DNA of 64,000 nucleotides from Candidatus Omnitrophota bacterium (GTDB lineage: Bacteria; Omnitrophota; Gorgyraeia; Zapsychrales; Fredricksoniimonadaceae), in contig CAILQW010000040.1 in assembly GCA_903836515.1 (NCBI GenBank), forward strand, positions 34,207 to 98,206. Reading direction: 5' to 3'. Below are positions 30,101 to 54,150 of the stretch, one piece after another; within the stretch, counting starts at the first letter, position 1, and each line of letters starts with the position of its first letter. A program made the position numbers and the translations under genes. Under the pieces are notes generated by a model, which was given only the letters and a program-made list of their open reading frames with translations, had not been told where the DNA came from and ran no database searches.

Positions 30101-33100
30101 TCTGGATGTCGCATCAAATTCTTTTCCTGTAAAATCATTTGAATTCAGCGTTACTTCTTCAAAATTTCTGACAGATCGCACATTCTTTGTATTATACAAA
30201 TCAATAATTTTTAATTCCCAACCATCTTTCTTGACTAAATACCGCCCAGCGATCGGTTCAGCCGTGAGACTGTCTTCCTGCTTCCATTGCTTCCCGTTCA
30301 CTTTGACAATATTATATTTATCCTCTCCGTCCTTCCCTGCAGTAACATCATACGTCACATTCCCGTCAAAATAATGCGTTGTAACCCGCTTACTACCCGT
30401 CCCGGATTCTGTTAACGTCAACGGCTGTAACAACGACCAGAACTGGCCAACTCCCTGATAAACCAGCGGCATTTTAGTGGCATTCACCAGCATAACATCC
30501 TCTTTCATGCTGGCAACATTGCCGCGGGCAAGAACCTCTCCTTTGCCGCTCCCAGTGATCTTATCATTCGCCGGTACAACAATTTGCCCATCGATCATCA
30601 TGGACGCGCCGCCCAGTGAATTCATTCCCCATCCATTAACTTGAGCATTGTACAGTTTTCGTTGAAAAGCCGTTTGAATGTTCCCGGTAACCACAAGGCC
30701 CGTCAACCCTTGAGGAAGATCGCCTCCAAACACAACTGAACCATCCTTATTGACCCGACTCCACCCTGTCATGTTCAGGTTATAATGCATCCAAATACCA
30801 GTAAAAGGTGTTTGTTGCGCAGGGAATGCGCCCGAAATAGAGGCTCCGCCCCCTATATTCATCAGCGTTGACCCTGATTGTTTATTGTTTATATTGTTCA
30901 CGATCATATGATCCAGCCCAAAGAACGACCTCGAACCATTGGGCATATTAATAACCCCCATGAACGCACCCGGCATATCAGAACCAAACTTCTGGAAAGA
31001 ATCCAGCGTCACAACCCCACCACCCGGAGTCTGGATGTGTGAAGTCTGTCGTGAATTCACAAGATTTGTCGTAGAAAGCCCGTCCATAACAACGACACTG
31101 GCAGCATTGGGATTAAAATGCATAAAAGGGTCATTCGCAGATTTTGTGAACTCAAAATAAGAATTATTAAGGGCTTGCTGATATGTATTCAATTGACCCT
31201 CAGGATCTACGCCCCCCTCATTATAAAGCCCCTTAATATGTTTTGTCTGATATGCATACCCCTTTTCCCCTTCAAGAAATGTGTTCCCATAAATATAATG
31301 TGAGATCGCTGCATCAAACTTTTTCCCTTCCGTTAAAACACCTTCTCTAAAACCGGTTGTGGCTAGAATGATCTGCTGATTCATGCCTAGTCGATCAAGT
31401 TCTTGTGATGTATATGTCCTTATCCCTTGTGGACTAAAGGCCCAAATGTTCGGTTCAGTAGCCGTTCCACTACCAGCACCATCTTTCTTGTTCAAAGGTG
31501 AATTATCCCTGGGATCCCAAGTCAAAGATTCCTTTGGCTTGTTTTCCGTTCTAAGCTTAAGATCCAGCCCTTTTCCAATCCAGGTAAAGCTGGCCATGTT
31601 GATCCAGGCCCCGTTTGCCTGACGGATCTTGCCGCTCACACTGATGTATTTATCAAGTCCATTGCGACTATTAACATCCATGTAAAGCCCGCGTTTCACC
31701 GCAGCCGGGCTCAACATGATCTTCACGGCCTGCTCCTTACCGATCTCTCCATCTTTACCTGGATCCCCGTTATACCCCTGGGACAACTCCGCGGCCAGGC
31801 GCTGAATGCCGCCCCAATACTGGCCTGTCCTGAAAATCGAAGCGTGGGTGAGCTTGTTGCCCGTCGTCAAATTCTGCTCATACCACGTCCTGTCGCCCAC
31901 ATAAAGCGAGCCCGTATCCGTGATATGGAGATGAATATCCTTGGCCCCAAAGCCGCGATAAAGCTTGGGTGAAAAAACAAGATTGGTTGTGGGATCAAGA
32001 TGATAGGGTGTCTTGTTAAACTGCTGCGTTTTTTCATTAAACTCGCCGGAATAAATATAGTGAACGCTGGTGAGCAACGGCGTCATCTGGCCGCTAAAAG
32101 GGTCGTCGGCCGTGAACGCGACCTGGCCGTTAAATTCTGTGGAACCATGACCGGATTTCTTGTACAAGAAAACCTTGCGCACAGGATTATTCTGGTCGCC
32201 TTCCGTCCCGTAACTTTTCTGATCATACAACTTAAGGGTTGATTGCGGATCTTTGATCGACCCCATGGTCCCGCTTTTTTTGCTATCGGATTTGGCACCC
32301 AGAAGAGATTCCGAATAGAATGTAATATCCTCCGATTTATCCTTGGCTGTGAACAAAAGCTCCAACCCGGGAAGATAAACACCGTCCTTCTGCCGCACCT
32401 TGAAGGCAACATTAAGTTCTTTCGTACTCAGCTCGACTGGTTTGCCATCAAAATCCCATTTTTCCCCCTTCACCCCCTCGATCGTGCCATTACCCCTGCC
32501 CTCGACCAGCGGCGACATGGTCCAGCCGGAATTCTCATTAAAATAAGATTTACTGATATCTGTCCCGACGGAATTGACCGCGCCAAAGGAAACATCCCCC
32601 CGCGCAACACCTTCGCCCTTAAAACCGTTGTGCTCATCTTGATATATTTCTTCAATCTTTGCCCCATCAAGATATCCCATGACCGGCTGACCGGATTGAA
32701 TATTCCCATGCGACGCGTCTGCCACCTTAAAAGGACGGGTATAGACTTCAGGTTTGCCATTGGTTGTGTCGAGGATCAGATTCCGGGCAAAGCGCTCATC
32801 CCCCACGCGCCCGGCTGTATCCAAATATTCAAATACGCCCTTGGTGGCCTGGATATTGGACTCTGCCAGGAAAGCAAGCTGGCCTTTTTCCTGAAACTTT
32901 TGCGTTCCATCATTATTGTACCCAACAAGGTCCTTGGCCGCAAAAGCCTCAACCAGCGGATTCCCATTCTTGGCATACGACAAATTAACGTACGATGCGC
33001 CCGCCCCGGCTGTCTGGCCATTAAGGCTCCAGCGCCCATCTGTATCAAGACCAAGAACCCCTGGATTAAGTTGCGCATACCCGTAAAGAGCGCCAAAAGA

Positions 33101-36100
33101 ATCCGGCATCAACTGCCGTTGCGCCACGGTATTATTTAAAACAGGTTCGCCCTCCCCATTAGGAAGTAACGGCGAAGCGAATTGTTTCGGCAATGCCTGG
33201 ATTTCACGCGAATCCCCCATGGTGTAAAGCTCGCCGCGGGCATACTCCAGCTCTGGCGTTTTAATATAATTGCCTTTTAAAGAATCATTTAAATGCTGTT
33301 GCCATGAATTGGCCACTGTAATCGAAGACCCTGTGTTTTGGTCTTGCGCTGTTCCCGTATTCCACAACGGGGAACCCGACGAAGTGTCCCCTAGCACTGT
33401 GCCGTAGGCTAAAGGTGACCCAAGTCCCGTTTTACGATCTGCCGATGTGCCTAAATGAAAATCTTCGAAAGACGTTGTCTCGGGATTTGTAACCAATACA
33501 TTGGATGAACTGCGCGGAACCCAGGTCGTTGTGGTTACTTCTTTCCCACCCAAGACAATCCCTGTTTTTGCGTACGTCGCTTCACCTATAACCGGAGCCC
33601 TGCCGCGGCTAAAACCATAAAAAGATGTGTTCAGACCATCCAACAACAAAACATCCTTTTTACCCTCAGGAGTCATCGCGACAATCTGACCACGATCCAA
33701 CGTTTTTCCCGTAAAATCCTTGGTATACGATAGATTGAAATCCCCCACATCTTCCGCCAGACCCACAATCCGCGCCAGGCCGGAAACGCCTCCGGTGCGG
33801 CCGCCACTGACTTGAAACTGCGTGGCATGACCAGCGGCATCCCGTTGCCAAGAGCCCTGGTATTGAACATTCGTAACGGGATTCTGCGCGGTAAATGCCG
33901 TACCGCCGCCAACATTGTCGTCGGTGAGCGTCACAAGATAATATGGATTGCCGGAATTCAGCGAGCGGAACCTGTTGCGTGTTATGGCCTTGGTATCAAG
34001 AACGCCTTGACCATCCTGATTCATCAAGCCGCTCACATTATCAACCTGAACGGGGCGATTAGCCTCAGGCAAAGCCTCCAGTTGCGCAAAAGCCCGGTAG
34101 GTAAAACCAAGATTCGTGTAAATCTTGCGTGCAAGGCTGTCGCTCTGAACCGAAGCCAGGTAACCCGACGCCACATTTTCAAACCCGCGCTGCGTATTGC
34201 TCACAATGCCTTTCTGCGCCATCGAAGCAATGTAACTGCTGCTGATCATGCCGGGATCGATCGAATCAAAAGTTGTCGCCAGCAATTGCGCATATAACAC
34301 ATCCCCGGCCAGCGCCCCGGGCTGCAGGGGATCCTTAGCATGGGTGACAGCCATTTTCGCATTGTCTACCTGCAAGGTATCCCATTGTTTCTTCATTGAT
34401 AACGCCCATTCCGGCGTAAACCCGGTGATTTGATCCAACGTTGAGATCGCCAAACTCGCCGCCGCCATGCGTTCAGGCGCTTCCCGCCTGGTATCGGCAA
34501 AAGTACTCATGGCACTGGTTCCCCAGAAATCCGCCTGAAACTTCTGATTACTATCCCAAAATTCCTGTGTAGTCGCATTCATAAACCGGCTCAAAGGGCT
34601 GAGGCTGATACCGACATTAGGATCGTAGGCATCACTGGTATTGGCTATCCCATAAGCACTCGAACGCCCGGTGTTGGTATCGTTAAAATTAAAACTGGGT
34701 TGTGCAGGATCTTGCCCTGAAAAATTGGAACTATACCCCACAAAGCCCCGCGCCTTGGCGCTTTCCTCAATATCCTTGCCAGGGCTGAACAACGCATCCG
34801 CACCTGCCAAAAGGGCCCCCGAAAGAATCGCTGATGCTTCAAACACAATCATGTTCCGCTGGGCCTGCGCCGCCTGCTCATTATGGGACAAATTCTTCTG
34901 ATCAGATGTCACGGCCAACGTAATCAAGGTTGTCACCGCGGCCTGGCCAACCGTTTTAAAGAAAGGAGCAGCTTCATTTTCTTGTTTTTGCACCAGCGCT
35001 CCCAGCGTGCGCGCATCCTCGGAACTTAAATTTATTAATAAATTTTTCTGTTCTGGCGTTGCGTTTTCACCAGCCTTCAAGGCAGCAGCCGCCTTGAGGT
35101 TCGCCTGCATAAATTTTTCCTCAGCCTGTGAAAACGGAGACACCCCCACCCAATTCCCCACCATGCCCCCCATCTGCTTGCCAAACAGCCCAAGGACCTG
35201 CGATCTGGCATTGGCGTCTTTATCATTTTCTTCTCTGAACCCGTTGGCCGCGTAACGCACCACCGCAGAAATGGCATCGCCGATCACCGCTTTACGAAAA
35301 CCCGCGCTTGTAAATGCATCCTTGGGAGATAACGCTTTACCCTCGGGATTCAATATGGTCTTGGGATTCATAAACTCGGAAAAAGACATGGCCGGCCTTT
35401 TCTCCGCAGAAGATGAACTATCCTTTATGGAAGAACGACTATTCGTTGTAGAAGGCGAACTCAGCGCCGCGACAATCTGGCTCGCCGCCACATTCGTTCC
35501 ATAATCAATGACAGATGACGCAACCGCGTAACAAAAGCTCTTGGCAATAGCCTGGTTATCACCCCACACATGATCCAGCCACTTGGAAACCTCATACATG
35601 GCCAACCCTCTGACCGCGCCGACGATCGCGCCGGTCGCCGCGGCTTTGGCTATTTCACCCACGCTTAACGCCACGGTCTGCGTGGCGGCGTTCTCAAGTG
35701 CCGTTTGCAGTCCTGCACTAGTTAGATCTTCACCCAGGGCTGTAGCAGTACTCTTAATCTCATCCATTGCTGGATTCTGTCCCGCCTTGGCGGCTCCTTG
35801 GGCATAATTGTACCCGTACGTCAATGCCGCATTTAACGCCGTGGTTAAAATAAAAGCTGTCTTGGCACTGCAATTCCCGGTAACGTAACACGCAGACCCA
35901 ACAGCTTGGGAAAACTGCGATGCTCCAAGGGCAAACGCGGCATCAAAACAGTTTCCGCCCAGCAAGAGCGTCGCTCCTATTTGAATACCAACCTGAAGCG
36001 CAATCTGCCCCAATGTCACCAGGCCCGGCAAATCACTGGATCTGTTACGCCAGTGGTCACCCCAAACAAAGGCCTGCATGGCCTCAGGCACACGCGTGAA

Positions 36101-36994
36101 GGCTGCCGTGTCAAAGGCCTCAAGCCCCTGGGCCAGCACAAACCCCGTGGCCCTCTGTTCAAACTGCGCGCGCGGCATGGCCGCGGGCGTACCGATATCC
36201 ATGACACGCACCATGCCGCCATCCACCGCGATGACGGTTACAAAATGCTCCCCGGCCAGACTGGCGATAAAAGGCGGGGGGAGTTTCAGCACATCTGAAG
36301 GCTTCAATTTGGCAGCCGCATACTTCAAATCAAACGCCTTAGCCACCCTGGAAAGAGCTGCCAGCGATGTTTTAAGTGTTTTGTCTCCTGGTTTGACAAT
36401 GCCGCTGATAATGTCCACGGTCACTGTCATCAGAGAAACTTCTTCTGGTGTCTTGTGAATACCCTGGGCCGCAAGAATATCATTTAACGCATAAACACCG
36501 CAATTAAGGTGATGAAGGGATGGCTTTGCAAGCCAGGCAACAGTTTGACGGATCTGTGCCGGCGTGAAATTGACATGAGAATCAACGGCAAGGACATATT
36601 CCCGGTGCTTGTTTCCGGATAAAAGATTCTTGCCATCATCGATCTTGAGGTCAATGCGGCTTGAAGGCTGGCCCGCCACCTGCGTCAGAAGATGCTCCAT
36701 ACTGCTGGACACAAGCATGGCGGTCTGTTGCGCTGGCTGCAGCTGCACCTGGACTACAGGCGTGCCATAAAGGATCGCCGGATTATAATTGAATGCCCAA
36801 CTGACCTGATCGGGAATAAAAATGCAGATAACAACAAATGCGATGGCACGCGTCCATGCATGAAATCGTGTGGGTATTGACGGTTGACGGAGAGATATGG
36901 CTTCAATAGGGCGGGGCAAAGAAACAGAGCTTCTCCTATTATATATAAGAAAAGCAAAGAACTCCTTTAACTGTTCTTTGAACTTCATGATCAT
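15182..36994 (-). CDS. Giant 7270-aa multidomain protein (21.8-kb single ORF) of unknown function.
   Basis: A continuous reading frame of 7270 codons with no stop; chance ORFs in ~55% GC DNA rarely exceed a few hundred codons. GAGG lies 6 nt upstream of the ATG at 36994. Domain order (N to C): TM anchor, C39-like peptidase, Gly/Ala-rich glycine-zipper-like segments, beta-rich region, long helical/coiled-coil region, P-loop ATPase (SF2/SecA-like), HEXXH motif, C-terminal tail. Sub-features below carry the individual motif evidence. Confidence 0.9.
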   Translation of the reverse strand: MIMKFKEQLKEFFAFLIYNRRSSVSLPRPIEAISLRQPSIPTRFHAWTRAIAFVVICIFIPDQVSWAFNYNPAILYGTPVVQVQLQPAQQTAMLVSSSMEHLLTQVAGQPSSRIDLKIDDGKNLLSGNKHREYVLAVDSHVNFTPAQIRQTVAWLAKPSLHHLNCGVYALNDILAAQGIHKTPEEVSLMTVTVDIISGIVKPGDKTLKTSLAALSRVAKAFDLKYAAAKLKPSDVLKLPPPFIASLAGEHFVTVIAVDGGMVRVMDIGTPAAMPRAQFEQRATGFVLAQGLEAFDTAAFTRVPEAMQAFVWGDHWRNRSSDLPGLVTLGQIALQVGIQIGATLLLGGNCFDAAFALGASQFSQAVGSACYVTGNCSAKTAFILTTALNAALTYGYNYAQGAAKAGQNPAMDEIKSTATALGEDLTSAGLQTALENAATQTVALSVGEIAKAAATGAIVGAVRGLAMYEVSKWLDHVWGDNQAIAKSFCYAVASSVIDYGTNVAASQIVAALSSPSTTNSRSSIKDSSSSAEKRPAMSFSEFMNPKTILNPEGKALSPKDAFTSAGFRKAVIGDAISAVVRYAANGFREENDKDANARSQVLGLFGKQMGGMVGNWVGVSPFSQAEEKFMQANLKAAAALKAGENATPEQKNLLINLSSEDARTLGALVQKQENEAAPFFKTVGQAAVTTLITLAVTSDQKNLSHNEQAAQAQRNMIVFEASAILSGALLAGADALFSPGKDIEESAKARGFVGYSSNFSGQDPAQPSFNFNDTNTGRSSAYGIANTSDAYDPNVGISLSPLSRFMNATTQEFWDSNQKFQADFWGTSAMSTFADTRREAPERMAAASLAISTLDQITGFTPEWALSMKKQWDTLQVDNAKMAVTHAKDPLQPGALAGDVLYAQLLATTFDSIDPGMISSSYIASMAQKGIVSNTQRGFENVASGYLASVQSDSLARKIYTNLGFTYRAFAQLEALPEANRPVQVDNVSGLMNQDGQGVLDTKAITRNRFRSLNSGNPYYLVTLTDDNVGGGTAFTAQNPVTNVQYQGSWQRDAAGHATQFQVSGGRTGGVSGLARIVGLAEDVGDFNLSYTKDFTGKTLDRGQIVAMTPEGKKDVLLLDGLNTSFYGFSRGRAPVIGEATYAKTGIVLGGKEVTTTTWVPRSSSNVLVTNPETTSFEDFHLGTSADRKTGLGSPLAYGTVLGDTSSGSPLWNTGTAQDQNTGSSITVANSWQQHLNDSLKGNYIKTPELEYARGELYTMGDSREIQALPKQFASPLLPNGEGEPVLNNTVAQRQLMPDSFGALYGYAQLNPGVLGLDTDGRWSLNGQTAGAGASYVNLSYAKNGNPLVEAFAAKDLVGYNNDGTQKFQEKGQLAFLAESNIQATKGVFEYLDTAGRVGDERFARNLILDTTNGKPEVYTRPFKVADASHGNIQSGQPVMGYLDGAKIEEIYQDEHNGFKGEGVARGDVSFGAVNSVGTDISKSYFNENSGWTMSPLVEGRGNGTIEGVKGEKWDFDGKPVELSTKELNVAFKVRQKDGVYLPGLELLFTAKDKSEDITFYSESLLGAKSDSKKSGTMGSIKDPQSTLKLYDQKSYGTEGDQNNPVRKVFLYKKSGHGSTEFNGQVAFTADDPFSGQMTPLLTSVHYIYSGEFNEKTQQFNKTPYHLDPTTNLVFSPKLYRGFGAKDIHLHITDTGSLYVGDRTWYEQNLTTGNKLTHASIFRTGQYWGGIQRLAAELSQGYNGDPGKDGEIGKEQAVKIMLSPAAVKRGLYMDVNSRNGLDKYISVSGKIRQANGAWINMASFTWIGKGLDLKLRTENKPKESLTWDPRDNSPLNKKDGAGSGTATEPNIWAFSPQGIRTYTSQELDRLGMNQQIILATTGFREGVLTEGKKFDAAISHYIYGNTFLEGEKGYAYQTKHIKGLYNEGGVDPEGQLNTYQQALNNSYFEFTKSANDPFMHFNPNAASVVVMDGLSTTNLVNSRQTSHIQTPGGGVVTLDSFQKFGSDMPGAFMGVINMPNGSRSFFGLDHMIVNNINNKQSGSTLMNIGGGASISGAFPAQQTPFTGIWMHYNLNMTGWSRVNKDGSVVFGGDLPQGLTGLVVTGNIQTAFQRKLYNAQVNGWGMNSLGGASMMIDGQIVVPANDKITGSGKGEVLARGNVASMKEDVMLVNATKMPLVYQGVGQFWSLLQPLTLTESGTGSKRVTTHYFDGNVTYDVTAGKDGEDKYNIVKVNGKQWKQEDSLTAEPIAGRYLVKKDGWELKIIDLYNTKNVRSVRNFEEVTLNSNDFTGKEFDATSRTKISKKFDFGDVLSLFSNPVTNFSMYLNPYVLGEKIVNKLIFNEEVSTEVILKKKDTTGKIVQAGSVEFGKYDPNTGRPQVVQVRQLDIKTLRPKEATDFQGIKEGIAGFIVPFEKVLKIGGIFKRVEGVSGLSRNRVFSADNTRAIPSNLENISTKIFLNKNGTIDFGASLKNTVPYDQVFKPIEYTTLAMNLQNRMSARTQAVWSLDYSTGTMQSVANGSTIKMPDGYYYQVNNKDLNLKKEGELNTPFTTAVLGQTTGVGRWLKDNQMSAIAGVVDPGRWTTFDVVSTPFLFLAATKAVSMGTRSISGAGAMTKWLVPVGRAIAADFAAGTVVSVGQDLLTGNPVSYDRAVANGLSWGRTGGQFQLAFGATAMGATALGMERWGAALAKTAEGTGAKAFGARLMLNPAKISGVQMGIINTFNGYLESTMPGEKAWTWRRGIVDFVVGDVIGSVYGGLKGLKINGGEFKGMNKAYHEFVLNPENVVAHRISNAIAYTGGSLMGGQFRDYYGQSSQHVDNNGLQKTILRVTAGALGGSMFATSGKWLNFIVAENKVELTPVLNSTEKMTVKLGEKIKNFETVKSLGNEWKVLREEGALLRPGPLQVAGVRPSSLAQWWSGAPRAAYVRHALVGGSIGGGFSMFDDVMTGRDINWEKAGGYALFGAANALAMKGWRDVGMLKARAVLGISEERVSLQAFARNPDLIWKTGLISGADFAWTMPAFNGATAGIEYLLNKAKYSLGIVGGKPDKENWSEARKAVFGPTGKEGLWNASIASMASGFKMGMTLGPMLGVTSRPFGISGGGPLEMVLSHPWAHTIPTTASKLAVVKAGLTSLGVDRDTADAIAFYSLAFFPGANPGAARDAQHKNIEKEIAWREGRDQSDPKIFDLQKQQMGLLQQEHREVKQQMASFSDAKESPVYAKLEAKSSVLDARINEAGAHMAEPIIRERIDKIDNLIDKFQQRFDSVSNDPVKAPKIGEILSKLEARKGVLTALLPENITRLNASIDTAQKLVKNMEAISSKKDAPVNKELTDLIAERAQLLMDLINFKAVVRIEAPNSDVSKKSPQVVSEQPTVNGLLDGLQKISKDPVDLAKELSAKQARLVEVNESLVLTRQAQIARAAAKTPDQKTLAIKDYQAAKADADLKRVDAERILALHELNAKVEKAKQAGIDVEKISAPGNKDVSRQAGPEYEEVVRAQRNVERLEQEKGDAVARAEHYQGRALAERKIQADSAQIVQLQAKRNTLESKNKKTDVELKAINDLDVEITGKEKVLRWFTQLVQESVSHDLAGGASEGKNNITREMARDWKEIQNTKVLRDLAQQYVKSKGVGAEESTMIEGVIKELTPLLDSAFDQVRPQVGQEHAAQAPPKTQDTGSANESSSRMRISSETSDFSPTETQSFLKELSSSITQISQRRAELAEDMMDLVVNKYGNAAKVVRLKAPERQAKAELDAAKNDLGEIRQSVPVKTSLEEKVTTAREVEGKKNSKSQNTKDSVSSEENTDKDSTKNIKKAVSPEDAILYTLQEILKNESYVKMQEQMKASPKAKAKARELLGERAYGEFVSSLEAKAKQEEAQLNRISDLQAKVDVATANLDNTRWSGLVENYLKKEYSQLSKEDRATLHFGADEILMNTILQQFPKQVAEWKALKEEREKEKDANASLIDQRIHEAEKALMVEVGKQLTRDQIAATEWFVRSGVKQLENLWAQKDLSEQKKTENSAKTEDSSKTLIDDMVALVKDPGQQEVVRSLFMAAQMERNGSAMHQNDIKLEEKKLDNEGARKDVSKGRIELLKQNIEAIKTDINKYKDPTGLLSLYSGILERLVGQEYDFQREPDTADKHRDSAVEHLERAKQESSYAVRLEAMRELADQPLDGYMAKFQQATTYRDQRAALQGMVTEGIREQAAVDIFRIRQELQNSINSVLSSPLDNEERAAKRIEKISERLQSLYQRLESLDPGSDVVIMEKEDCQKLLALARDAVQIIQNPAGIGSTRWDGIKDQAKKFGYDEKPNEQKEMREKAREILTSLHKTLGQDQAGLFAARLTDRTRQESMLSGVDHDAKVQRKELNEKDASSLAILIDNAEAVDKERGKTPAPQLQGRHQKLYDYTDTILRGLKEKENWDRRPDQIKYVFHQLNYIFYLIDRIEEKKANGVVWGIDGVLLSLAMAGGKTKMEPYIINLITPYAREHGVEVMNIKPNVTLAEAAGNREGFFRYKVPGDLTLPENKGKVPVLAFQELQKISLDYQNSRDPDKVNPLKDYLGVVDEIHQILLSVPMITSDATDSFAVARKMTTEKLMERAREQITGRMLGQTILEVANAFAGKKSDAMALVIDAFIKEERSGDIKFRTSEEKKFIWMRDGEVIDVKNVESGDKLFEVKDGKIVLMDREVSSEEMSKASGIQDIFKEQFRNKMKNDAKAFAELADGRWDIFMDAAATALKNELWKDKFRAAFKADGTFDLVTIQHILSGTEAYDRVFTDKTGLNSFMRMIVGLHEAKTNKTVSLPEFIRLTDRNNHVQVTAMETLGLMGSWLGVTGTAEPVHDLAKAYGIYMHEFGTAITLEHVNWTHELVKGAPGEDIATQVRAWLRAPRDPNRPASTEVLYINQGLTEDRKAAIDHQDIQALKNDKNVVVLHYDANNFNQGVEALKRKVGKDIKGNYYDVNRVEMTDAFGRKVEGGLDGKKIIFLSAGQEGASFEFDGHLTHYDFNVRALYGALQSMLRGDSIKSEYTEIKDNANRTSSDYKLFVNIGAYRDPRLIDPDRDRLRSVQGTAEEFKVLVQIMKRLQQEESQQSFVQSVSVDKGLNRDAMGQHLQRMYEDWRADMVREFAQENGIARIWDGVNGAGGQALRMSQDGKNVMHLYDFTLQNGQGIKDEFGYIKLAPGQIGVPTGGSGETMRVYTPTTDMSQQTIMDRLNRGEAIEQPTQQWLVMDYRVNPDTASDKPPMVRTWVPAEQVVNGEDVEVKVTTDMMVVVADGNKVKVPQVTRYFKNDLYKGMDQFKRIEKEDLVRIGAALGLGKAESLELVTPVSGTKQGYKYQAFYDAQQNVRGVLFEGVLYQNSIKEEMKESALKNNNLFEFEALVSEKIEHADMRRDELRLKLKMKMQGPELVMADAEVANEAPILLNGREIAKGDKVGYYNEEGGKKMFVVHGKGVVIRDGHSYIAQDGVVATDIANVKVAYKGEDGKIKVARAFGQESMKFASLEEGYQRGLFKIMGGVPEGAEAGAGLDLKGATIDNTTGEMVSRNMSRIGWFWDDRIFVRQWDAAKNGYYYNFEDNAAIKDKAESLNMTLVKHAYGYSVAAEEFESAMAEQVRVGEKLTRDYQSFLATQGASRQQAMDYAASVNQYANLFRVKASVIPMTEKGTPVNKDATLGQIAHQSGMRYAVQLESMDETPETPEGVPLGKRAASFGQIVGFIKKEFNKDLLLDPALDAAKSAAQSTEDHFKLGSALGLSLIKGLVKFDEAGVFLHELFHEYNKVMKGRGQGGAFVQSRLTRYDLIGRLLGQGEDIYWEQFSNEEIFAHYLEMFGMKFKPDGKPEIPEFLKDVLHKDFTEFLEKANKVLPGFVFKGKMQFLHEAYEAGDIREARDHARAITETIARMTRFAQASEFSFRQAIKVVESTQDIASFVTENTKNVVVTIPYTVQGEKNTQEVYISADIPAAERKAEVLKILKSSAQQSAKMSRRSALLGMISQKHPAETVQLTQMVDQYLSGLTDAAYIERADRLMKVMGCAVIDVEKEGDVMKRVVARTAYIDPKIVAQRQKDYPEEKKDDIEKELREVGNIALQPDRTWKINLPDEKKAEEVSIDWIRFNAVQSRIGASLNGTTATWTTPAMQFVDNKDKFVKNIAPHVPKGYTVTPVGHQDGDLIKDLVARYQKKNPDTKKADEIRDLLSSSDALNLVVRDAKGDIVGYLAASQSGKEGTLAVAHFEADSYKAQEALKAVVAQWKVQTDNNTRYLPGAVVVTLPLFAAKGGASMIAYQEVVKNSNAEVLEKAMDNITEGQAESRWLTRQGERLQEVLNTLAKLAVAGASAEHLKQVVAVVGDGKQGPFMARIHLPDEDIFVPLPDEFTQKTPVDAFLTAALVPVIERACLEFARQTLVIQAGQNLTDPRVHAAAKNAMDRPEYWDDPLKLKALGLIFAETDQRPQENSDGTFIYTDKKKDKVPENSVKISAEGTISLLTYKEKILPVALEDEERIRVQMAAVAAFAGAVPADAKAGELFPLSKGRKLLTKFNFGAGKGSEESKNITDKVIDALEKQRSGESVGGEKLLRDGIGEQQVLIDGIEKSRKTVSGDIYYYLAILQEGLADTLAQKRKHKSKEIMERAVSGEDKQQLAVEWMSLEQESELKEMSWSVRENLVKAATDVVTQPDIRQQAVERICHFMAADHSQAVDHGEAGTDSWFEWVENFFRKGVLGNAMKAAASAEPAASPALILPVVPKPTLPVAPSWYSLQPFVQPAIRTITTITQIPTPQMLEDFLSSNTPSDPQARQRFFEVADVLLRNRGIDTGRLDAGRAQAVVRASLAQLLTLTNLQLKRLRDIKTAFDSENPTEEQIGLLKRYSMLTAVLGGEDISSPEDQDQFGSSFRTSATSAKKLKCGIQLVDMDDPVWFAFYLKKYTNDPLMLLGTIVAGARKSIVKNALKADLDKAITVLAKLAGREDDVTKLVRDIIKEVPSILERLPVVQEVLTIALGKAGAAKVMAALHSSFGYGVVNAGDLVIKHLNPAVKTMLRRYRHKKLTREKFVEYLAKWEYALNEKGQVVYQSEAVAERERRMVAPDDEALAIKLESRKLIGEYRRREIKVKQLQAELLKLSRSIRDVEPTAQEKAVFNARYWWLDPDHKVPEDLVKPGNPLDAKPPEPVFIHRPVSAAEDNGSTFENETDSKLRLIDDPGEIVTDRPSPADSKTAIIPPSAPSIWKTNETPAWAPVLLDDPLLLKPRFPWIMGGSAKPAVSFQDSRLPAKSKDGAVDTL
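19682..19696 (-). other. Isolated HEXXH zincin-like motif (FLHELFHEY) in the giant protein.
   Basis: GVFLHELFHEYN is seen directly (encoded at ~19676-19700). No additional metalloprotease landmarks were recognised, so this may be fortuitous. Confidence 0.2.
22600..23700 (-). other. P-loop NTPase core resembling SF2 helicase / SecA motor domain (Walker A and DExH Walker B) inside the giant protein.
   Basis: Walker A LAMAGGKTKM is encoded at 23582-23605. Walker B/motif II GVVDEIHQILLSVPMITSD is encoded at 23296-23320, ~98 aa downstream, the normal motif I-II spacing. The local pattern (EPYIINLITPYA after the P-loop; VDExxxILxxxPxIxS) resembles SecA (GEGKTLVATLPAYLNAL / VDEVDSILIDEARTPLIIS). 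DEIH is a classical DExH helicase variant. A further ~300-aa region downstream is compatible with a second RecA-like domain. Confidence 0.45.
23700..27490 (-). other. ~1200-aa charged helical / coiled-coil region of the giant protein.
   Basis: It starts at KEIAWREGRDQSDPKIFDLQKQQMGLLQQEHREVKQQ... (encoded at ~27425-27490). It continues with K/E/Q/L/A-rich low-proline sequence and recurrent heptad-like hydrophobic spacing, ending just before the ATPase core. Confidence 0.5.
27500..29200 (-). other. Gly/Ala-rich amphipathic glycine-zipper-like segments within the giant protein (possible membrane-interacting region).
   Basis: Stretches such as GAGAMTKWLVPVGRAIAADFAAGTVVSVGQ, GGQFQLAFGATAMGATALGMERWGAALAKTAEGTGAKAFGARLM and GGSLMGGQF...GALGGSMFATSG show repeated small-xxx-small (GxxxG/AxxxA) spacing. 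This is seen directly in the translation. Confidence 0.35.
36139..36607 (-). other. C39-like papain-fold cysteine peptidase domain at the N-terminus of the giant protein (residues ~130-285).
   Basis: HLNCGVYALNDIL (Cys165) ... TSLAALSRVAKAFDLKYAAAKL ... LPPPFIASLAGEHFVTVIAVDGGMVRVMDIGTPAAMPRAQFEQRATGFVLA (His250, Asp266). This follows the C39 family pattern: a CGxxAL nucleophile region, the HFVV(L) His block and a downstream Asp with correct spacing. It is preceded by a TM helix (AIAFVVICIFI, residues ~50-60). Confidence 0.55.
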
Positions 36995-39881: not shown

Positions 39882-40787
39882 TTAAGACCCACCTGCCATA
39901 TTTTTCAACGGATTATTGTACATAAAATCAAGGAAGATCGGCGCGCCGACCAAGATACCAACTACTGGAAAAATACAAAAAAGGAGCGGCATTAACATCT
40001 TTAGCGGCGCCTTAAGGGCCATGGCCTCACCCCTGCGATAACGCGCCATACGCATGTCTTCGGAAAGAATGTTCAGGGCCTCACTTACAGACGTCCCCAT
40101 TTTATCAGCCTGGATCAAGGTCCTGGAAAATGTCGAAAGGTCGGGGATCTCGTACTTTTTCGCCAGATCGCGCAGGGCATCACGCCGCGGCTTACCTACG
40201 TTGATCTCCTGCAGGACGTTATTCATTTCGCTCAAAAGAAACGACGGACTTGATTTTTCGACCACCCACTTGAGCGCCATCATGAAGTCGAGCCCCGCAT
40301 TTACGCAAAGGCCCAACAGGTCCACCGTATCGGGTAACTGTTTAACAATGCTTTCCTTCGCCTTCTTGATCTTGCCGCGCAGCCAGAATTCCGGCAGAAA
40401 ATACGCCCCCCCGATCGATACCAGAAACCCAAACATCAACAGATCCTTGTTCAAAAAAGTAAAAGCTGTGTAAAAAAGAAAAATAAACAGGATTTCTTTG
40501 ATCAGCAGGAATTCTTCGGGAGAAATGCCTGTATGCGATACCGATATATTTTTCAGCATGTTCCGGCGCATGTCCTGGTTAATCAAGGGCTTGTTTAAAA
40601 CCGACATTCCCCGCAAAAAGGAAGAAACCAGGGATTTGCGCTCTGTCTTTTTTTTGGTCTGCTCGGAAGAAACGACCCCAAAATCATGCATTTTCAATGT
40701 CGGCCTGGCATCAAGGACATCCATCTTGACACCCATCACCACAAGCATCCCGCAGGCCACAATAAAAATAAACGCGATCGTCAGCAT
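39882..40787 (-). CDS. tadC: Flp pilus assembly inner-membrane platform protein TadC (GspF/T2SF family).
   Basis: 301 aa and multi-TM with the T2SF-like architecture. It lies immediately downstream of its paralog tadB (10-nt gap). Confidence 0.75.
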   Translation of the reverse strand: MLTIAFIFIVACGMLVVMGVKMDVLDARPTLKMHDFGVVSSEQTKKKTERKSLVSSFLRGMSVLNKPLINQDMRRNMLKNISVSHTGISPEEFLLIKEILFIFLFYTAFTFLNKDLLMFGFLVSIGGAYFLPEFWLRGKIKKAKESIVKQLPDTVDLLGLCVNAGLDFMMALKWVVEKSSPSFLLSEMNNVLQEINVGKPRRDALRDLAKKYEIPDLSTFSRTLIQADKMGTSVSEALNILSEDMRMARYRRGEAMALKAPLKMLMPLLFCIFPVVGILVGAPIFLDFMYNNPLKNMAGGS

Positions 40788-40796
40788 GGGATCCCC

Positions 40797-41654
40797 CTAA
40801 TCATTGAACGAACTGATCTTGATGATCAAAAATGTGCCCAGCAGCCACAGCCCGATAGAAACCATCATGAGCATCCGGCCAAGCTCGGTGGTGATCATGA
40901 CCTGAAAATATTTGGGATTGGTGGCATTGACCATAACAAAGAATGCCACCGGAAGACCGCTCATGACCGCCGCCTGCAATTTTCCCTGCACCGTCAATAC
41001 CATCAGATTTTCCTCAATTTTGCGCCGCTCGCGAATGGTCCCGACGATCCTTGAAAAAATAAGGGGAAGATTGCCGCCCGTTTCACGCGAAAGAAGGATG
41101 GCGCTGACCATCTGCTGCATGGCCGCGGAAGCCATTCTCTTGTACAAACGGTTCAACGCCTCATCAAAAGAGACACCCATTTTATTTTCACCCAGCACGA
41201 TCCCGAATTCATGACGGATGGGATCGGGCATTTCTTCAACCACCGCTTCCATGGACTGCACCAGGCTCATGCCGCCCCGCAGGGAACTGGACATGATCAT
41301 GAGCGCGTCAACAAGCTGGACATCAAATTGCTGTTTACGTTTTTTAAGAAGGCTCCCGGCATAAAGCCTGGGCAGGATCAGCCCTACCACGAATCCGCCC
41401 AAAAGCCCCGCGAAACGAAATTGCGTATCAGAAAAAAACATAAAACCCAGCACGGCGCAAATGAACGGGGCGATAATATACAAACGCTGGACAGCCTGGA
41501 TGTCTTCGGCGATCATGGAGCGGTCCATTTCGCGCGCAAAGTCCCTGGCGCGCTTCTGGTTCATTTCATGAACGCCTCTGACCGTGACAGGGATCACAAA
41601 ATAAACGCACAAGACCGCACATACAAAGATCAGGATAAAAATGACAGGAAGCAT
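40797..41654 (-). CDS. tadB: Flp pilus assembly inner-membrane platform protein TadB (GspF/T2SF family).
   Basis: 285 aa. An N-terminal TM precedes a cytoplasmic helical domain (ALMIMSSSLRGGMSLVQSMEAVVEEMPDP...GENKMGVSFDEALNRLYKRM) and C-terminal TMs. Confidence 0.75.
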   Translation of the reverse strand: MLPVIFILIFVCAVLCVYFVIPVTVRGVHEMNQKRARDFAREMDRSMIAEDIQAVQRLYIIAPFICAVLGFMFFSDTQFRFAGLLGGFVVGLILPRLYAGSLLKKRKQQFDVQLVDALMIMSSSLRGGMSLVQSMEAVVEEMPDPIRHEFGIVLGENKMGVSFDEALNRLYKRMASAAMQQMVSAILLSRETGGNLPLIFSRIVGTIRERRKIEENLMVLTVQGKLQAAVMSGLPVAFFVMVNATNPKYFQVMITTELGRMLMMVSIGLWLLGTFLIIKISSFND

Positions 41655-41669
41655 AGGATCATTTCTGGC

Positions 41670-42005
41670 TTATGGTTGGTTGCTGCAGGCTGCCTGACAG
41701 CCTGTCTTTACCCCGTCAACACACGCCCGATAGTCGGCCGCTCGCTTGCACGGCAGGACTGCGTTATTATAACAGGCCTGCGCGTACCACACATTCAATT
41801 GATCATCATACGCGCACTCAATGGTCGCATCGGGATTATACTGCCGTAAAAACCCGAAAGTCTCCGACACCTTGCGGTACTGCCCCTGCAATCCCCGCTG
41901 GATATAACTGCGAAAAGAAAAAACAACCGCCAATACAATAATGATCAGCACCACATACTCAAGCATGGCGAACGCTTTCTCTTGTTTCCAACAGGCCCCT
42001 GGCAT
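41670..42005 (-). CDS. Flp-type (class III signal peptide) pilin paralog with a Cys-rich C-terminal extension.
   Basis: Start taken at MMGAAMPGACWKQEKAFAMLEYVVLIIIVLAVVF. AFAMLEY fits the [GAS]-x4-E-[YF] Flp processing motif followed by a hydrophobic helix. The C-terminal half has 8 Cys (ECAYDD...QACYNNAVLPCKRAADYRACVDGVKTGCQAACSNQP). The longer ORF-track start at 42143 is rejected. Confidence 0.55.
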   Translation of the reverse strand: MPGACWKQEKAFAMLEYVVLIIIVLAVVFSFRSYIQRGLQGQYRKVSETFGFLRQYNPDATIECAYDDQLNVWYAQACYNNAVLPCKRAADYRACVDGVKTGCQAACSNQP

Positions 42006-42016
42006 AGCGGCTCCCA

Positions 42017-45000: not shown

Positions 45001-45079
45001 TCACGGCGTACAAAACAAAGGCGACAGCAACCATCAGGATCACAACAAGGGACATTTGTCCTTTACGGGACAGTGGCAT
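42017..45079 (-). CDS. TadG-like pilus-associated protein, 1020 aa, with a very large Cys-rich extracellular domain (candidate tip adhesin).
   Basis: N-terminus GQMSLVVILMVAVAFVLYAV...SNSAAAALVSLMAGYG resembles the TadE/TadG N-terminal (Tad) domain. Additional TM/Gly-Ala helices follow, then ~800 aa with >40 Cys (e.g. CNPCCTDPTMRPAACSLDPKKPELVPQECLSAPGCAPSANQLTACYAYDP) ending in RRCSECCSQ. It is embedded in the tad operon. Confidence 0.55.
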   Translation of the reverse strand: MPLSRKGQMSLVVILMVAVAFVLYAVTINWSRIASTKTTVTIASNSAAAALVSLMAGYGENLIQTQLGGEAKKCGFTGVLAAIIALVAIVVLTCVIPGAGEVAGSAMGLSAGTVAAISIGLAVAAIVLQVTVVQPGLTKMWNKWQKNLPTIEDKYLENGISTALNLATGDPVLVTDRWDLDGNTHWYIREYPQKGDPAAKVSRFAFYYTDRMRGIPLPPTTAIDTLRQTLQGVVDALGLSGGNPAVCYVDLGTGPQLRPQCNPCCTDPTMRPAACSLDPKKPELVPQECLSAPGCAPSANQLTACYAYDPLYVQKNVSTSFLSVMGMDDANKKKYFSAGAEIPDPWMPIFRGADSTGKIFPFLWLLADTAPMLKDINAADMRAEAPGCHWCDKRVTPCSLTTPPFSPPPTPTRLLFRPAGTTAYDQLSLPTCVGEDCCVNTFNNNVSSSLSYSNFKLDVVPDIESFRPVADSDCARDPAVEAGTKLLWKKGADRYSDTFQDPSSNIVYPVKMEQGSSSQPVGVCNAAGAPAAIAANCMCPNVDHKDLWYDDGFDAMSTGMAYFLQTVTPLLTTNPATQAQLAYSVAAWKAAVIAQGMELGKMEARMQRWIDEINTWLKGPYTDANAWCLPTDLTTMTAKEKNYILATPSPWGSVDSVLRCLDYNSNLNQAFAACAGALSANPTACVAAAACKDLPRSLVPGFDPNNDLGRNVAAGTCSADYIKKISNSATLAVNQSIKMKARAAYLRDLLQHMKDFLPVLQKAHDDIAGKGQQIIGLVNSIDAVIAAAPHLGNQVIYGWLSPRPGAWNTSNAATRKGYLHLVKVEAAIPKHGGAGFNTCTNTFPWIRTYTEGILSMTRCYEISDADGCVGTRVIRYDEDHDPAQGGVLKLLSGLPIWQILYRNPHNRNTDVGYNVSDIYRNCIENHYSRKSERDAAGNVTNSYVRLEDTSAAIMTQDNLNEAFMINLPLESSMPGPLIECYNAAEALLSKGVVSETCARYFISGNKMQMTFRRCSECCSQ

Positions 45080-45093
45080 AGAAAAATCCTTGT

Positions 45094-45342
45094 TTATTTC
45101 TTATATAGCAATGTATCCATTGTCCGAACCTCGTGAAAATTCGGATTCACCTGCTGTTCTGTGGTCAAATTCTTGTTGCTCAAGATCGCATCATGATCAT
45201 ACCGCCGTTCCGCCATATCCATCATGCCCCAGCGAAAAACCTCGATCATGCCATAAACGATCAACGACAGGGCGATCATGCCTGCCGTAAATTCGAGGAT
45301 GCTCTGGGCTTTGTTTCTTTTATTAAAAAACACCATGCTCAT
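45094..45342 (-). CDS. TadE-like minor pseudopilin (82 aa).
   Basis: KRNKAQSILEFTAGMIALSLIVYGMIEVFRW matches the TadE-like N-terminal hydrophobic domain. Its start overlaps the upstream gene stop by 4 nt. Confidence 0.6.
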   Translation of the reverse strand: MSMVFFNKRNKAQSILEFTAGMIALSLIVYGMIEVFRWGMMDMAERRYDHDAILSNKNLTTEQQVNPNFHEVRTMDTLLYKK

Positions 45343-47129: not shown

Positions 47130-47131
47130 GC

Positions 47132-47455: not shown

Positions 47456-47456
47456 A

Positions 47457-47786: not shown

Positions 47787-47795
47787 GGCTCACCT

Positions 47796-48143: not shown

Positions 48144-48213
48144 AAACTTCCCTTATTGAAAAATAAAACCAGGAAGGGCGCATGAAGACCCTTCCTGGTT
48201 CATCATTGACCCA

Positions 48214-48528: not shown

Positions 48529-48547
48529 AATAAATACCTTCCTTTCA

Positions 48548-48925: not shown

Positions 48926-49006
48926 TCTGTCCTCCTCCAATTAAAACTTTTAAGATCATCGTAAACACGATAAAATGCCTTTTAACTTCAGAACGACCGC
49001 ACACTC

Positions 49007-49195: not shown

Positions 49196-49220
49196 AGTAT
49201 CCTCCTCATTATAAGAACGC

Positions 49221-54141: not shown

Positions 54142-54150
54142 GCAGCCTTC

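What the first reader, a model, noticed from the sequence alone, without database searches (positions are those of the whole stretch)
36139..36607. C39-like peptidase domain used as the N-terminal module of the giant protein rather than in an ABC exporter
Residues ~130-285 reproduce the C39 bacteriocin-processing peptidase pattern (Cys in NCGVYAL, TSLxxLxxxAKxFDL block, HFVTV His block, downstream Asp). C39 domains normally sit at the N-terminus of double-glycine-leader ABC exporters. Here the domain follows a single TM helix and precedes ~7000 aa of other sequence, suggesting either auto-processing of the giant protein or a cleavage activity on partner proteins. The oxyanion Gln usually found ~6 aa before the Cys is not obvious, so the domain may be catalytically degenerate.
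Basis: partly seen in the sequence, partly recalled or inferred. Interest (0 to 1): 0.6.

Follow-up and report, generated by a model that had tools for sequence, protein, structure and literature searches.

The report
C39 protease head of giant protein
The start of a 7,270-residue protein from an Omnitrophota bacterium really does carry a bacteriocin-type (C39) cysteine protease domain with all three catalytic residues, but two preprints on Omnitrophota giant proteins already describe this arrangement, and its substrate is still unknown.

Summary

The domain lies between two hydrophobic helices. It belongs to a head module of about 450 aa, the only part of the first ~3,650 residues conserved in all 80 related loci. 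The head is almost always at the N-terminus of very long ORFs. In 59 of 67 informative loci it lies directly downstream of tadB-tadC.

The window matches the published Omnitrophota giant-gene locus: a Tad/T2SS-like cluster upstream, pilZ and sugar-ABC genes downstream. West-Roberts et al. (bioRxiv 2023) already reported N-terminal C39 domains in these proteins and offered the same two readings, self-cleavage or other substrates. This is therefore a new member of a known kind.

I found no canonical double-glycine site or leader-bearing partner. The substrate, and whether cleavage is in cis or in trans, remain open.

The parts
15182..36994 (-). Giant ORF, 7,270 aa
   Evidence: ORF list and translation. 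The only Pfam hit in the whole protein is Peptidase_C39. It has only 11 Cys.
35495..36862 (-). Conserved head module, residues about 45-500. It is the only part of the first ~3,650 residues shared by all relatives.
   Evidence: blastp coverage: 80 of 80 loci over residues 51-300, 66 over 351-400, then a fall to 1-4 loci. Ten full-length relatives show the same picture.
36854..36994 (-). N-terminal tail, residues 1-47, variable and rich in Lys/Arg
   Evidence: Alignment A1. The N-flank of TM1 averages 2.4 K/R against 1.1 on the C-flank in 65 members.
36797..36853 (-). Hydrophobic helix TM1, residues 48-66 (signal anchor or long signal peptide)
   Evidence: Kyte-Doolittle 19-residue maximum of 1.93.
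36770..36820 (-). Juxtamembrane motif F-x-P-[DE]-Q-[IV]-S-W-A-F-N-Y-N-P (residues 59-75). F59, P61, Q63, A67 and Y70 are invariant. S-W-A|F fits the -3/-1 rule for signal peptidase I.
   Evidence: Alignment A3 and its column counts. The cleavage-site reading is an inference, not a test.
36530..36739 (-). Family-specific extension before the C39 core, residues 86-155 (helix, beta-hairpin, helix; invariant W154)
   Evidence: AF2 model elements H48-67, E74-80, E93-99 and H106-116, block-mean pLDDT 67-90.
36080..36529 (-). C39 peptidase core, residues 156-305
36500..36502 (-). Codon of catalytic Cys165 (N-C-G motif; Asn164 is also invariant)
   Evidence: 81 of 81 conserved. First residue of model helix 126-137. 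Aligned to the ECG cysteine of LahT150.
36245..36247 (-). Codon of catalytic His250 (E-H-F invariant)
   Evidence: 81 of 81 conserved. Aligned to the HF of LahT150 and PCAT1.
36197..36199 (-). Codon of catalytic Asp266
   Evidence: 81 of 81 conserved. Aligned to the D of the His-Asp block of LahT150 and PCAT1.
36518..36520 (-). Ser159, at the position where C39 and papain enzymes have the oxyanion-hole Gln
   Evidence: Aligned to LahT150's Gln. Variable column, Gln in 1 of 81.
36020..36070 (-). Conserved motif F-V-W-G-x-K-W-x-D-x-S-x-x-L-P-G-L (residues 309-325; G312 invariant) that closes the domain
   Evidence: Block-mean pLDDT falls from 85 to 31 across this motif in the model.
35957..36022 (-). 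Second hydrophobic helix (TM2), residues 325-346
   Evidence: KD19 is 1.45 here. The family median is 1.79, with 82% of members at or above 1.6.
35810..35932 (-). Conserved helix-turn-helix with a C-x5-C turn (Cys369, Cys375), residues 355-395
   Evidence: A C-x(4-7)-C motif (mostly C-x5-C) was found in 50 of 60 members examined.
39882..41654 (-). tadB (40797-41654) and tadC (39882-40787), platform genes of the Tad/T2SS-like locus that precedes the giant gene
   Evidence: Pfam T2SSF. Found upstream on the same strand in 59 of 67 informative related loci.
41670..56732 (-). Rest of the Tad/T2SS-like locus: RcpC/CpaB, secretin, TadZ-TadA fusion, DUF192, a 613-aa protein of unknown function, at least 7 Flp-type pilin ORFs, and TadE/G-like pseudopilins
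   Evidence: Pfam. N-terminal G/A|Q..EY motifs read from the translations.

Best explanation
The stretch encodes a probably active C39-type cysteine protease. It is the core of a conserved, membrane-embedded head module of about 450 aa: basic tail, TM1, invariant juxtamembrane motif, C39 domain, FVWG..LPGL motif, TM2, C-x5-C hairpin. This head starts a hypervariable giant protein of Omnitrophota and is genetically tied to the tadB-tadC end of a Tad/T2SS-like secretion locus.

Shown:
- C39 fold and profile membership.
- An invariant Cys-His-Asp triad.
- N-terminal position in very long ORFs.
- Synteny with tadBC.
- Conservation of the head against a non-conserved body.

Inferred: the head is the constant 'handling' module of the giant protein. 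The protease performs a limited maturation or release cut at the membrane, most likely on its own polypeptide. The best precedent is the cis cut made by the C39 domain of the CdiA-like protein StbD. A cut in trans on a protein handled by the neighbouring secretion machine is the alternative. The protease would not be acting as a leader peptidase of an ABC exporter.

The side of the membrane is not settled. The charges flanking TM1 and the SWA|F motif favour an extracytoplasmic (periplasmic) domain.
For: Domain identity:
- Pfam PF03412 is above its gathering score.
- The AF2 core is mostly at pLDDT 91-96.

Activity:
- Cys165, His250 and Asp266 are invariant in 81 sequences that are only 34-67% identical to this one.
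- They align to the corresponding Cys, His and Asp motifs of LahT150 and PCAT1.
- They sit at the secondary-structure positions expected of a papain-like triad.
- Cys165 is kept in a protein with 0.15% Cys.
- Loss of the Gln is tolerated in CvaB.

Constant head on a variable body:
- Only residues about 45-500 are shared by all 80 loci and by ten full-length relatives of 5,208-7,820 aa.
- In 1.84 billion representative proteins, 205 clusters match at E<=1e-30, nearly always at their N-terminus.

Link to the secretion locus: tadB-tadC and pseudopilin genes lie directly upstream on the same strand in 59 of 67 loci with enough flank.

Precedent for cis cleavage: StbD's C39 domain cuts its own linker at a Gly-Gly 25 residues before its catalytic Cys.

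The same class and the same readings were published by West-Roberts et al..
Against: - No cleavage site was identified.
- GG dipeptides are not enriched in the giant protein (42 observed, 45.6 +/- 6.2 in shuffles).
- Only one leader-like hydrophobic pattern ending in GG exists, at residue 2743.
- GG after TM2 is no more frequent than composition predicts (15 of 60, about 23 expected).
- No small ORF in the window has a double-glycine leader.
- The conserved glycines next to the domain (G77, G312) are preceded by Tyr/Trp, not Gly.
- The oxyanion Gln is absent.
- Topology cues conflict: basic residues lie on the N-side of TM1 and, more weakly, on the domain side of TM2.
- Canonical C39 domains work in the cytoplasm.
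- Triad geometry was not measured.
- There are no experimental data for any member.
Confidence: 0.55

Rival explanations
1. The protease acts in trans. The membrane-tethered C39 domain cleaves other proteins, either cargo or components of the adjacent Tad/T2SS-like system or surface proteins of a prey or host cell. The giant body only positions it.
For: - No conserved self-cleavage site was found.
- The domain is tightly linked to a secretion locus that encodes many exported proteins.
- West-Roberts et al. list this as the alternative.
- C39 toxins that cut foreign proteins at Gly-Gly exist: StbD-CT cleaving GyrB/ParE.
Against: - No candidate substrate with a double-glycine leader is in the window.
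- Permanent fusion to the giant ORF in nearly every genome (74 of 80 frames still open at the end of the fetched DNA) is easier to explain if the giant protein itself is involved.
- The domain lies between two hydrophobic helices, so its reach is limited.
Confidence: 0.2
2. The domain is a non-catalytic C39-like domain. Like the CLD of HlyB-type RTX exporters, it only binds or chaperones a polypeptide (its own body or a partner) during export.
For: - The oxyanion Gln is missing in the whole family.
- No substrate site was found.
Against: - By established knowledge, CLDs are defined by loss of the catalytic Cys. Here Cys, His and Asp are invariant in 81 of 81 sequences in an otherwise Cys-depleted protein.
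- The best structural matches are active proteases.
- Gln-to-Ala is nearly neutral in CvaB.
Confidence: 0.15
3. The domain is a delivered toxin or effector, as in CdiA-like StbD or Cpe1, where a C39 or papain-like protease is injected into a target cell.
Against: - Toxin domains of polymorphic systems sit at the variable C-terminus and come with an immunity gene. Here the domain is the most conserved part, lies at the N-terminus between hydrophobic helices, and no immunity-like partner is conserved next to it.
Confidence: 0.05
4. The C39 head replaces the missing prepilin peptidase (TadV) and matures the many Flp-type pilins of the locus.
For: The window's Tad locus has at least 7 Flp-like ORFs with G/A|Q..EY sites. 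No Peptidase_A24 hit was found in any scanned ORF. C39 enzymes also cut after small residues.
Against: - P2 of the pilin sites is Lys, Arg, Ser or Asn, never Gly.
- By established knowledge, class III signal peptides are cut by membrane aspartyl peptidases on the cytoplasmic face.
- A prepilin peptidase may be encoded elsewhere; type IVa pilus genes are common in the phylum.
- This would not explain fusion to a giant body.
Confidence: 0.03

Closest known systems
N-terminal C39 domains of Omnitrophota giant proteins (West-Roberts et al., bioRxiv 10.1101/2023.11.21.568195; PF03412 architecture cluster in bioRxiv 10.64898/2026.06.07.730766)
   Same: - An ORF longer than 20 kb with a C39 domain near the N-terminus, next to a signal-peptide-like helix.
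- An upstream T2SS/Tad-like locus with Rotamase_2, rcpC, secretin, ATPase, GspF/TadBC and class III signal-peptide genes.
- Downstream pilZ genes and a binding-protein-dependent sugar transporter.
   Different: - This protein is only up to 66% identical in its head to anything retrieved.
- Its body has no Pfam-detectable glycosyl-transferase, methylase or dockerin content.
- Its SecA-like region is recognisable only by motifs.
Peptidase domain of PCAT/AMS ABC exporters (LahT150, PCAT1, ComA, CvaB; MEROPS C39)
   Different: - It is not fused to ABC transmembrane and ATPase domains.
- The oxyanion Gln is absent.
- It has an extra N-terminal helix/hairpin extension and an insertion of about 12 residues carrying invariant Asp194 and Lys208.
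- It is flanked by hydrophobic helices on both sides and is possibly extracytoplasmic.
- No double-glycine substrate was found.
C39 toxin domain of the CdiA-like protein StbD, which auto-processes in cis (bioRxiv 10.64898/2026.05.07.723447)
   Different: - StbD's domain is C-terminal, polymorphic, paired with an immunity protein, keeps Gln177, and cuts a canonical Gly157-Gly158.
- The domain here is N-terminal, is the most conserved part, has no Gln, and no Gly-Gly site was identified.
C39-like domain (CLD) of RTX exporters such as HlyB
   Different: By established knowledge, CLDs lack the catalytic Cys and are part of an ABC exporter. Here Cys is invariant and there is no ABC part.
LapG-LapA and MARTX CPD (functional analogies only)
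   Same: In both, a cysteine protease controls release or fragmentation of a giant surface or secreted protein. LapG works in the periplasm on the N-terminal retention module and is under c-di-GMP control. PilZ genes lie downstream here.
   Different: The protease families are different (C93 transglutaminase-like, C80). LapG is a separate protein. No link to c-di-GMP was tested here.

Membership tests
Peptidase C39 (Pfam PF03412 / MEROPS C39) | Profile match above the curated threshold | tested here: met
   26.9-29.7 bits against a cut-off of 22, over residues 209-287. The match drops to 21.5 bits when a 3,700-aa piece is scored.
Peptidase C39 (Pfam PF03412 / MEROPS C39) | Papain-like alpha+beta fold of ComA, LahT and PCAT1 peptidase domains | tested here: met
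Peptidase C39 (Pfam PF03412 / MEROPS C39) | Catalytic Cys at a helix N-terminus, with His and Asp downstream | tested here: met
   C165, H250 and D266 are invariant in 81 of 81 sequences, align to the corresponding Cys, His and Asp motifs of LahT150 and PCAT1, and have the expected secondary-structure placement. Inter-atomic distances were not measurable.
Peptidase C39 (Pfam PF03412 / MEROPS C39) | Oxyanion-hole Gln six residues before the Cys | tested here: not met
   The aligned position is Ser159 and the column is variable, with Gln in 1 of 81. Q26A and Q26N are tolerated in CvaB, so this does not exclude activity.
Peptidase C39 (Pfam PF03412 / MEROPS C39) | Cleavage after a double-glycine (GG/GA/GS) motif of a leader | tested here: inconclusive
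   There is no enrichment of GG, no conserved GG near the domain, and no leader-bearing small ORF. Specificity can only be settled by experiment.
PCAT / AMS bacteriocin ABC exporter | C39 domain fused to an ABC transmembrane domain and nucleotide-binding domain | tested here: not met
   No ABC_membrane or ABC_tran hit in the giant protein. The only ABC-type genes in the window are sugar-uptake components. The NCBIfam TIGR03796 hit is only 13.5 bits against a cut-off of 853.
C39-like domain (CLD) of RTX type I exporters | Catalytic Cys lost; the domain is part of an HlyB-type ABC protein | tested here: not met
   Cys165 is invariant and there is no ABC part.
Omnitrophota giant proteins with N-terminal C39 (West-Roberts et al. 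2023) | ORF of at least 20 kb with a C39 domain near the N-terminus beside a signal-peptide-like helix | tested here: met
   The ORF is 21.8 kb. TM1 spans 48-66 and the C39 core spans 156-305.
Omnitrophota giant proteins with N-terminal C39 (West-Roberts et al. 2023) | Conserved T2SS/Tad-like locus upstream (Rotamase_2, rcpC, secretin, ATPase, GspF-type genes, class III signal peptides) | tested here: met
   All are present at 39882-57698. TadBC lies upstream in 59 of 67 related loci.
Omnitrophota giant proteins with N-terminal C39 (West-Roberts et al. 2023) | pilZ genes and a binding-protein-dependent carbohydrate transporter downstream | tested here: met
   Two PilZ genes (13037-13815), GH94, a solute-binding protein, two permeases and GH2.
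Omnitrophota giant proteins with N-terminal C39 (West-Roberts et al. 2023) | Divergent SecA_DEAD domain in the body | tested here: inconclusive
   Walker A (AMAGGKT, 4463) and VVDEIHQ..PMITSD (4560) resemble SecA motifs and are conserved in P0059. There was no Pfam, PDB or homologue hit, and the single-sequence AF2 model reached only pLDDT 39.
Omnitrophota giant proteins with N-terminal C39 (West-Roberts et al. 2023) | Omnitrophota origin | tested here: met
   Every relative that carries a source name is labelled Omnitrophica/Omnitrophota. Most of the 80 genome loci are titled Omnitrophica/Omnitrophota MAGs; many others are titled 'uncultured Planctomycetales' and one 'Elusimicrobia'.
C39 toxin of polymorphic CdiA/T6SS effectors (StbD-CT, Cpe1) | C-terminal variable toxin domain with an adjacent immunity gene | tested here: not met
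   The domain is N-terminal and is the most conserved part. The conserved neighbours are tad genes, not an immunity gene.

The most novel reading that the evidence does not exclude
The C39 head (TM1, invariant PDQISWAFNYNP motif, protease, TM2, C-x5-C hairpin) may be the universal adaptor through which a Tad/T2SS-like machine recognises, anchors and then proteolytically releases hypervariable giant surface proteins. That would be a secretion-coupled processing step built from a bacteriocin-type protease but without an ABC transporter. It would have the logic of a PCAT or of LapG/LapA, in a new machine.
Probability: 0.2. Interest if true: 0.7.

Novelty: new member of a known kind. Interest (0 to 1): 0.3.

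Why it matters
Giant proteins of Omnitrophota are among the largest predicted proteins known and are thought to mediate attachment to, or digestion of, prey cells. How they are exported and matured is unknown.

The C39 head is the one part of the portion that could be compared (the first ~3,650 residues in 80 loci; full length in ten relatives) that is conserved across the family and tied to the secretion locus. It is therefore the most tractable handle for experiments: a soluble domain of about 250 aa with a predicted nucleophile.

The finding does not open a new question, because the domain, its position and both functional readings are already in the literature. This analysis adds the following:
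- The triad is invariant across the family while the Gln is lost.
- The head is conserved while the body is hypervariable.
- The adjacency to tadC has been quantified.
- Canonical double-glycine sites are not evident.

Tried and rejected
1. Single-sequence phmmer of residues 101-300 against PDB sequences found nothing relevant. The family profile did find LahT150 and PCAT1.
2. Search for a self-cleavage site.
   - GG after TM2 looked suggestive by eye but is not enriched (15 of 60, about 23 expected).
   - GG dipeptides in the whole protein are at the shuffled expectation, and only one leader-like pattern exists.
3. Search for a partner with a double-glycine leader among all 3,153 candidate ORFs (nested starts counted separately) of at least 30 aa in the window found none.
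4. The idea that C39 replaces the prepilin peptidase was rejected on site chemistry: P2 is never Gly.
5. 'Short' versions of the gene (L004, L020) looked like stand-alone proteases. However, the frame continues right after the stop, so they are split or erroneous giant genes.
6. Verification of the SecA-like ATPase region failed at every level:
   - Pfam, E up to 10.
   - PDB sequences.
   - Word-indexed homologue search.
   - AF2 without an alignment, pLDDT 39.
7. The HELFH motif region gave no Pfam family.
8. The AlphaFold-database fold library was not available.
9. Model coordinates are not exposed to scripts, so the Cys-His distance could not be measured.
10. Topology from flanking charges gave conflicting signals at TM1 and TM2.

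Full report
**1. What is at the coordinates**

The finding lies on the minus strand; the plus-strand translation is full of stops. Window 15182-36994 is one ORF of 7,270 codons. Positions 36139-36607 are its residues 130-285.

One strongly hydrophobic helix (residues about 48-66, Kyte-Doolittle 1.93) precedes the domain.

**2. Is it a C39 domain?**

Yes, on several independent lines.

- Pfam Peptidase_C39 (PF03412) scores 26.9 bits on residues 1-400 and 29.7 bits on residues 101-300. The gathering score is 22. The match covers profile positions 45-126, the His/Asp half. It is the only Pfam family found in the whole 7,270 residues.
- A 21-sequence alignment gave an AlphaFold2 model with mean pLDDT 82, mostly 91-96 through the core.
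- Foldseek against the PDB returns only C39 domains at the top: LahT150 6mpz, PCAT1, ComA, HlyB CLD. E-values go down to 1e-5 and TM is about 0.7 on the target.
- A family profile searched against PDB sequences finds LahT150 (E 3e-4) and PCAT1. It aligns EHF with the HF motif and D-I-G with the D of their His-Asp block. In a weaker segment it aligns N-C-G with LahT150's E-C-G.
- In the model, Cys165 is the first residue of a helix, His250 the first residue of a strand, and Asp266 the last residue of the next strand. This is the papain-like arrangement.

**3. Active or degenerate?**

I collected 80 related genome loci and aligned their heads with the window's, giving 81 sequences that are 34-67% identical to it.

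- Asn164, Cys165, Glu249, His250, Phe251 and Asp266 are invariant.
- The position that aligns with the oxyanion Gln of LahT150 is Ser159. That column is variable (D19 N14 E13 S11 K8 G8 A5 Q1).
- The giant protein has only 11 cysteines in 7,270 residues, and none between residues 489 and 4266. Retention of Cys165 is therefore conspicuous.

I conclude that the domain is probably catalytic (about 0.7), with an atypical oxyanion hole.

**4. Anatomy around the domain**

- The region before TM1 is variable and basic. The TM1 N-flank averages 2.4 K/R against 1.1 on the C-flank in 65 members.
- TM1 ends in an almost invariant motif, F-x-P-[DE]-Q-[IV]-S-W-A-F-N-Y-N-P (F59, P61, Q63, A67 and Y70 in 81 of 81). 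Its S-W-A|F fits the -3/-1 rule of signal peptidase I. That reading is an inference only.
- A family-specific helix/hairpin/helix extension (86-155) precedes the C39 core.
- Relative to LahT150, the core has an insertion of about 12 residues carrying invariant Asp194 and Lys208.
- The domain is closed by a conserved motif, F-V-W-G-x-K-W-x-D-x-S-x-x-L-P-G-L (G312 invariant).
- A second hydrophobic helix follows directly. Its family median KD is 1.79, and 82% of members are at or above 1.6.
- Then come a variable linker and a conserved helix-turn-helix with a C-x5-C turn, found in 50 of 60 members.

The protease is thus bracketed by hydrophobic helices. The TM1 charges and the SWA|F motif favour an extracytoplasmic domain. 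The flanks of TM2 do not confirm this: 1.1 K/R before and 0.5 after, but 2.1 D/E before. Topology is unresolved.

**5. Conserved head, variable body**

- blastp of the window protein against the 80 ORF fragments shows all 80 covering residues 51-300, 66 covering 351-400, about 30 covering 401-500, and then only 1-4.
- Against ten full-length relatives of 5,208-7,820 aa, only the head is shared by all. A block at about 2913-3138 is shared by four. One relative (P0059, 7,335 aa) also shares residues 4222-5961 at 29% identity.
- A profile search of 1.84 billion representative proteins finds 205 clusters at E<=1e-30 and 417 at E<=1e-10. The match lies at the N-terminus in nearly all.
- In 74 of 80 loci the frame is still open where the fetched DNA ends, at up to about 3,750 codons.
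- Of the six with a stop, three contain masked N runs. Two simply continue after the stop, so they are split or erroneous giant genes.

The C39 head is therefore essentially always the start of a very long protein.

**6. Genomic context**

Reading along the minus strand, the window contains the following:

- gyrB, gyrA, mdh and a PpiC/Rotamase_2 gene.
- RcpC/CpaB, a secretin, a TadZ-TadA fusion, DUF192 and a 613-aa protein of unknown function.
- At least seven Flp-type pilin ORFs (G/A|Q..EY), and TadE/G-like pseudopilins of 596 and 1,020 aa.
- TadB, TadC, a 748-aa secreted protein, and the giant gene.
- Downstream: two PilZ genes, GH94, a sugar-binding protein with two permeases, and GH2.

TadB-TadC and the pseudopilin genes lie upstream of the head on the same strand in 59 related loci. 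Eight loci with at least 3 kb of upstream DNA lack them. Thirteen have too little flank to tell.

**7. What is known**

All relatives that carry a source name are labelled Omnitrophica/Omnitrophota.

West-Roberts et al. [quoted passage not shown] They suggest that these may cleave the giant protein or other substrates. They also report that giant genes are preceded by a conserved T2SS-like locus (gspD/E/F, rcpC, Rotamase_2, class III signal peptides) and followed by pilZ genes and binding-protein-dependent sugar transporters. This window fits that description item by item.

A 2026 preprint lists a 24-protein PF03412 group as one of the two largest Pfam-architecture clusters among Omnitrophota long proteins. 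Seymour et al. 2023 describe the giant ORFs and the Tad genes but not the C39 domain.

No experiment exists.

**8. Mechanism**

The best-supported reading is an active C39-type protease that belongs to the constant membrane-embedded head of a hypervariable giant protein. It is coupled to a Tad/T2SS-like machine and makes a limited maturation or release cut.

A cis cut has a direct precedent. The C39 domain of the CdiA-like protein StbD cleaves its own linker at Gly157-Gly158, 25 residues before its catalytic Cys183. This happens in cis and only under reducing conditions.

I could not find the site here:

- GG is not enriched in the protein (42 against 45.6 +/- 6.2).
- GG after TM2 is not enriched.
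- The conserved glycines next to the domain follow Tyr or Trp.
- No small ORF in the window has a double-glycine leader.

Specificity may therefore differ from canonical C39 enzymes, which would fit the altered oxyanion position and the insertion.

Rival readings, with my confidence in each:

- Trans cleavage of secretion-system cargo or prey proteins: 0.2.
- A non-catalytic CLD-like docking domain: 0.15. Disfavoured by the invariant triad.
- A delivered toxin: 0.05. Disfavoured by position and conservation.
- A substitute prepilin peptidase: 0.03. Disfavoured by pilin site chemistry.

**9. Verdict**

Identity and architecture hold, function is untested, and 'degenerate' is unlikely.
- Novelty: a new member of a known, already described kind.
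- Interest is modest (0.3). The head is a good experimental handle on an unsolved problem, but the finding itself would not surprise a specialist.

Noticed in passing
window 23297-23608 (-), residues 4463-4566: A Walker A motif (AMAGGKT) and a VVDEIHQILLSVPMITSD motif resemble the SecA DEAD motor (VDEVDSILIDEARTPLIIS, recalled from memory). They are conserved in the 7,335-aa relative P0059. No Pfam, PDB or homologue hit supports this, and AF2 without an alignment gave pLDDT 39.
   Followed up: partly
window 19682-19696 (-), residue 5767: An HELFH (HExxH, zincin-like) motif lies in the C-terminal third. HExxH motifs were also seen by eye (not aligned) in the sequences of full-length relatives P0054 (HEFFH) and P0075 (HELLH). 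P0059, which aligns across this region, has HEIATH (HExxxH). No Pfam family matches. It could be a second, metal-dependent protease.
   Followed up: partly
window 15182-36994 (-): Cysteine is extremely depleted: 11 Cys in 7,270 residues (0.15%), six of them in the first 500 residues and none between 489 and 4266. This is typical of exported proteins. The secretin and RcpC in the window also have none.
   Followed up: partly
window 47132-49379 (-), plus 41670-42143 and 45094-45342: There is an array of at least seven paralogous Flp-type pilin ORFs with G/A|Q..EY class III signal peptides, plus TadE-like ORFs. No prepilin peptidase (Peptidase_A24) hit was found in any ORF scanned in the window.
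   Followed up: partly
window 42017-45079 (-): A 1,020-aa TadG-like pseudopilin has 35 cysteines (3.4%), in contrast with the Cys-poor giant protein. It has no Pfam hit and is conserved upstream of the giant gene in most related loci.
   Followed up: no
window 37416-39662 (-): A 748-aa protein with a signal peptide, an internal duplicated segment (..NAQGNNLFDWRNKIKRS..) and no Pfam hit is inserted between tadC and the giant gene. Among the 80 related loci, a homologue was found only in L058, where it lies just downstream of tadC but about 4.5 kb upstream of the giant-gene start.
   Followed up: partly
window 27580-28255 (-), residues about 2913-3138: A hydrophobic Gly/Ala-rich block (..NPDLIWKTGLISGADFAWTMPAFNGA..) is the only body segment shared with several distant full-length relatives (P0041, P0054, P0059, P0075; overlapping tblastn hits in a few related loci such as L001). 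It may be a second membrane-associated conserved module.
   Followed up: partly
window 14271-15098 (+): An ORF convergent with the 3' end of the giant gene has a sub-threshold Colicin_V (CvpA) Pfam hit (26.5 bits, cut-off 29.3). This is a curious neighbour for a C39 domain, since CvpA is linked to colicin V production. Conservation could not be checked because the related loci do not reach the 3' ends of their giant genes.
   Followed up: no
proteins P0084 (3,237 aa) and P0129 (2,535 aa): Some relatives match the head profile at internal positions and in several stretches (4 in P0084, 3 in P0129). C39 domains of this type may therefore also occur as internal repeats.
   Followed up: no
window 13037-13815 (-): Two adjacent PilZ-domain genes lie downstream of the giant gene, as reported for other Omnitrophota giant loci. 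They hint at c-di-GMP control of something in this locus.
   Followed up: no
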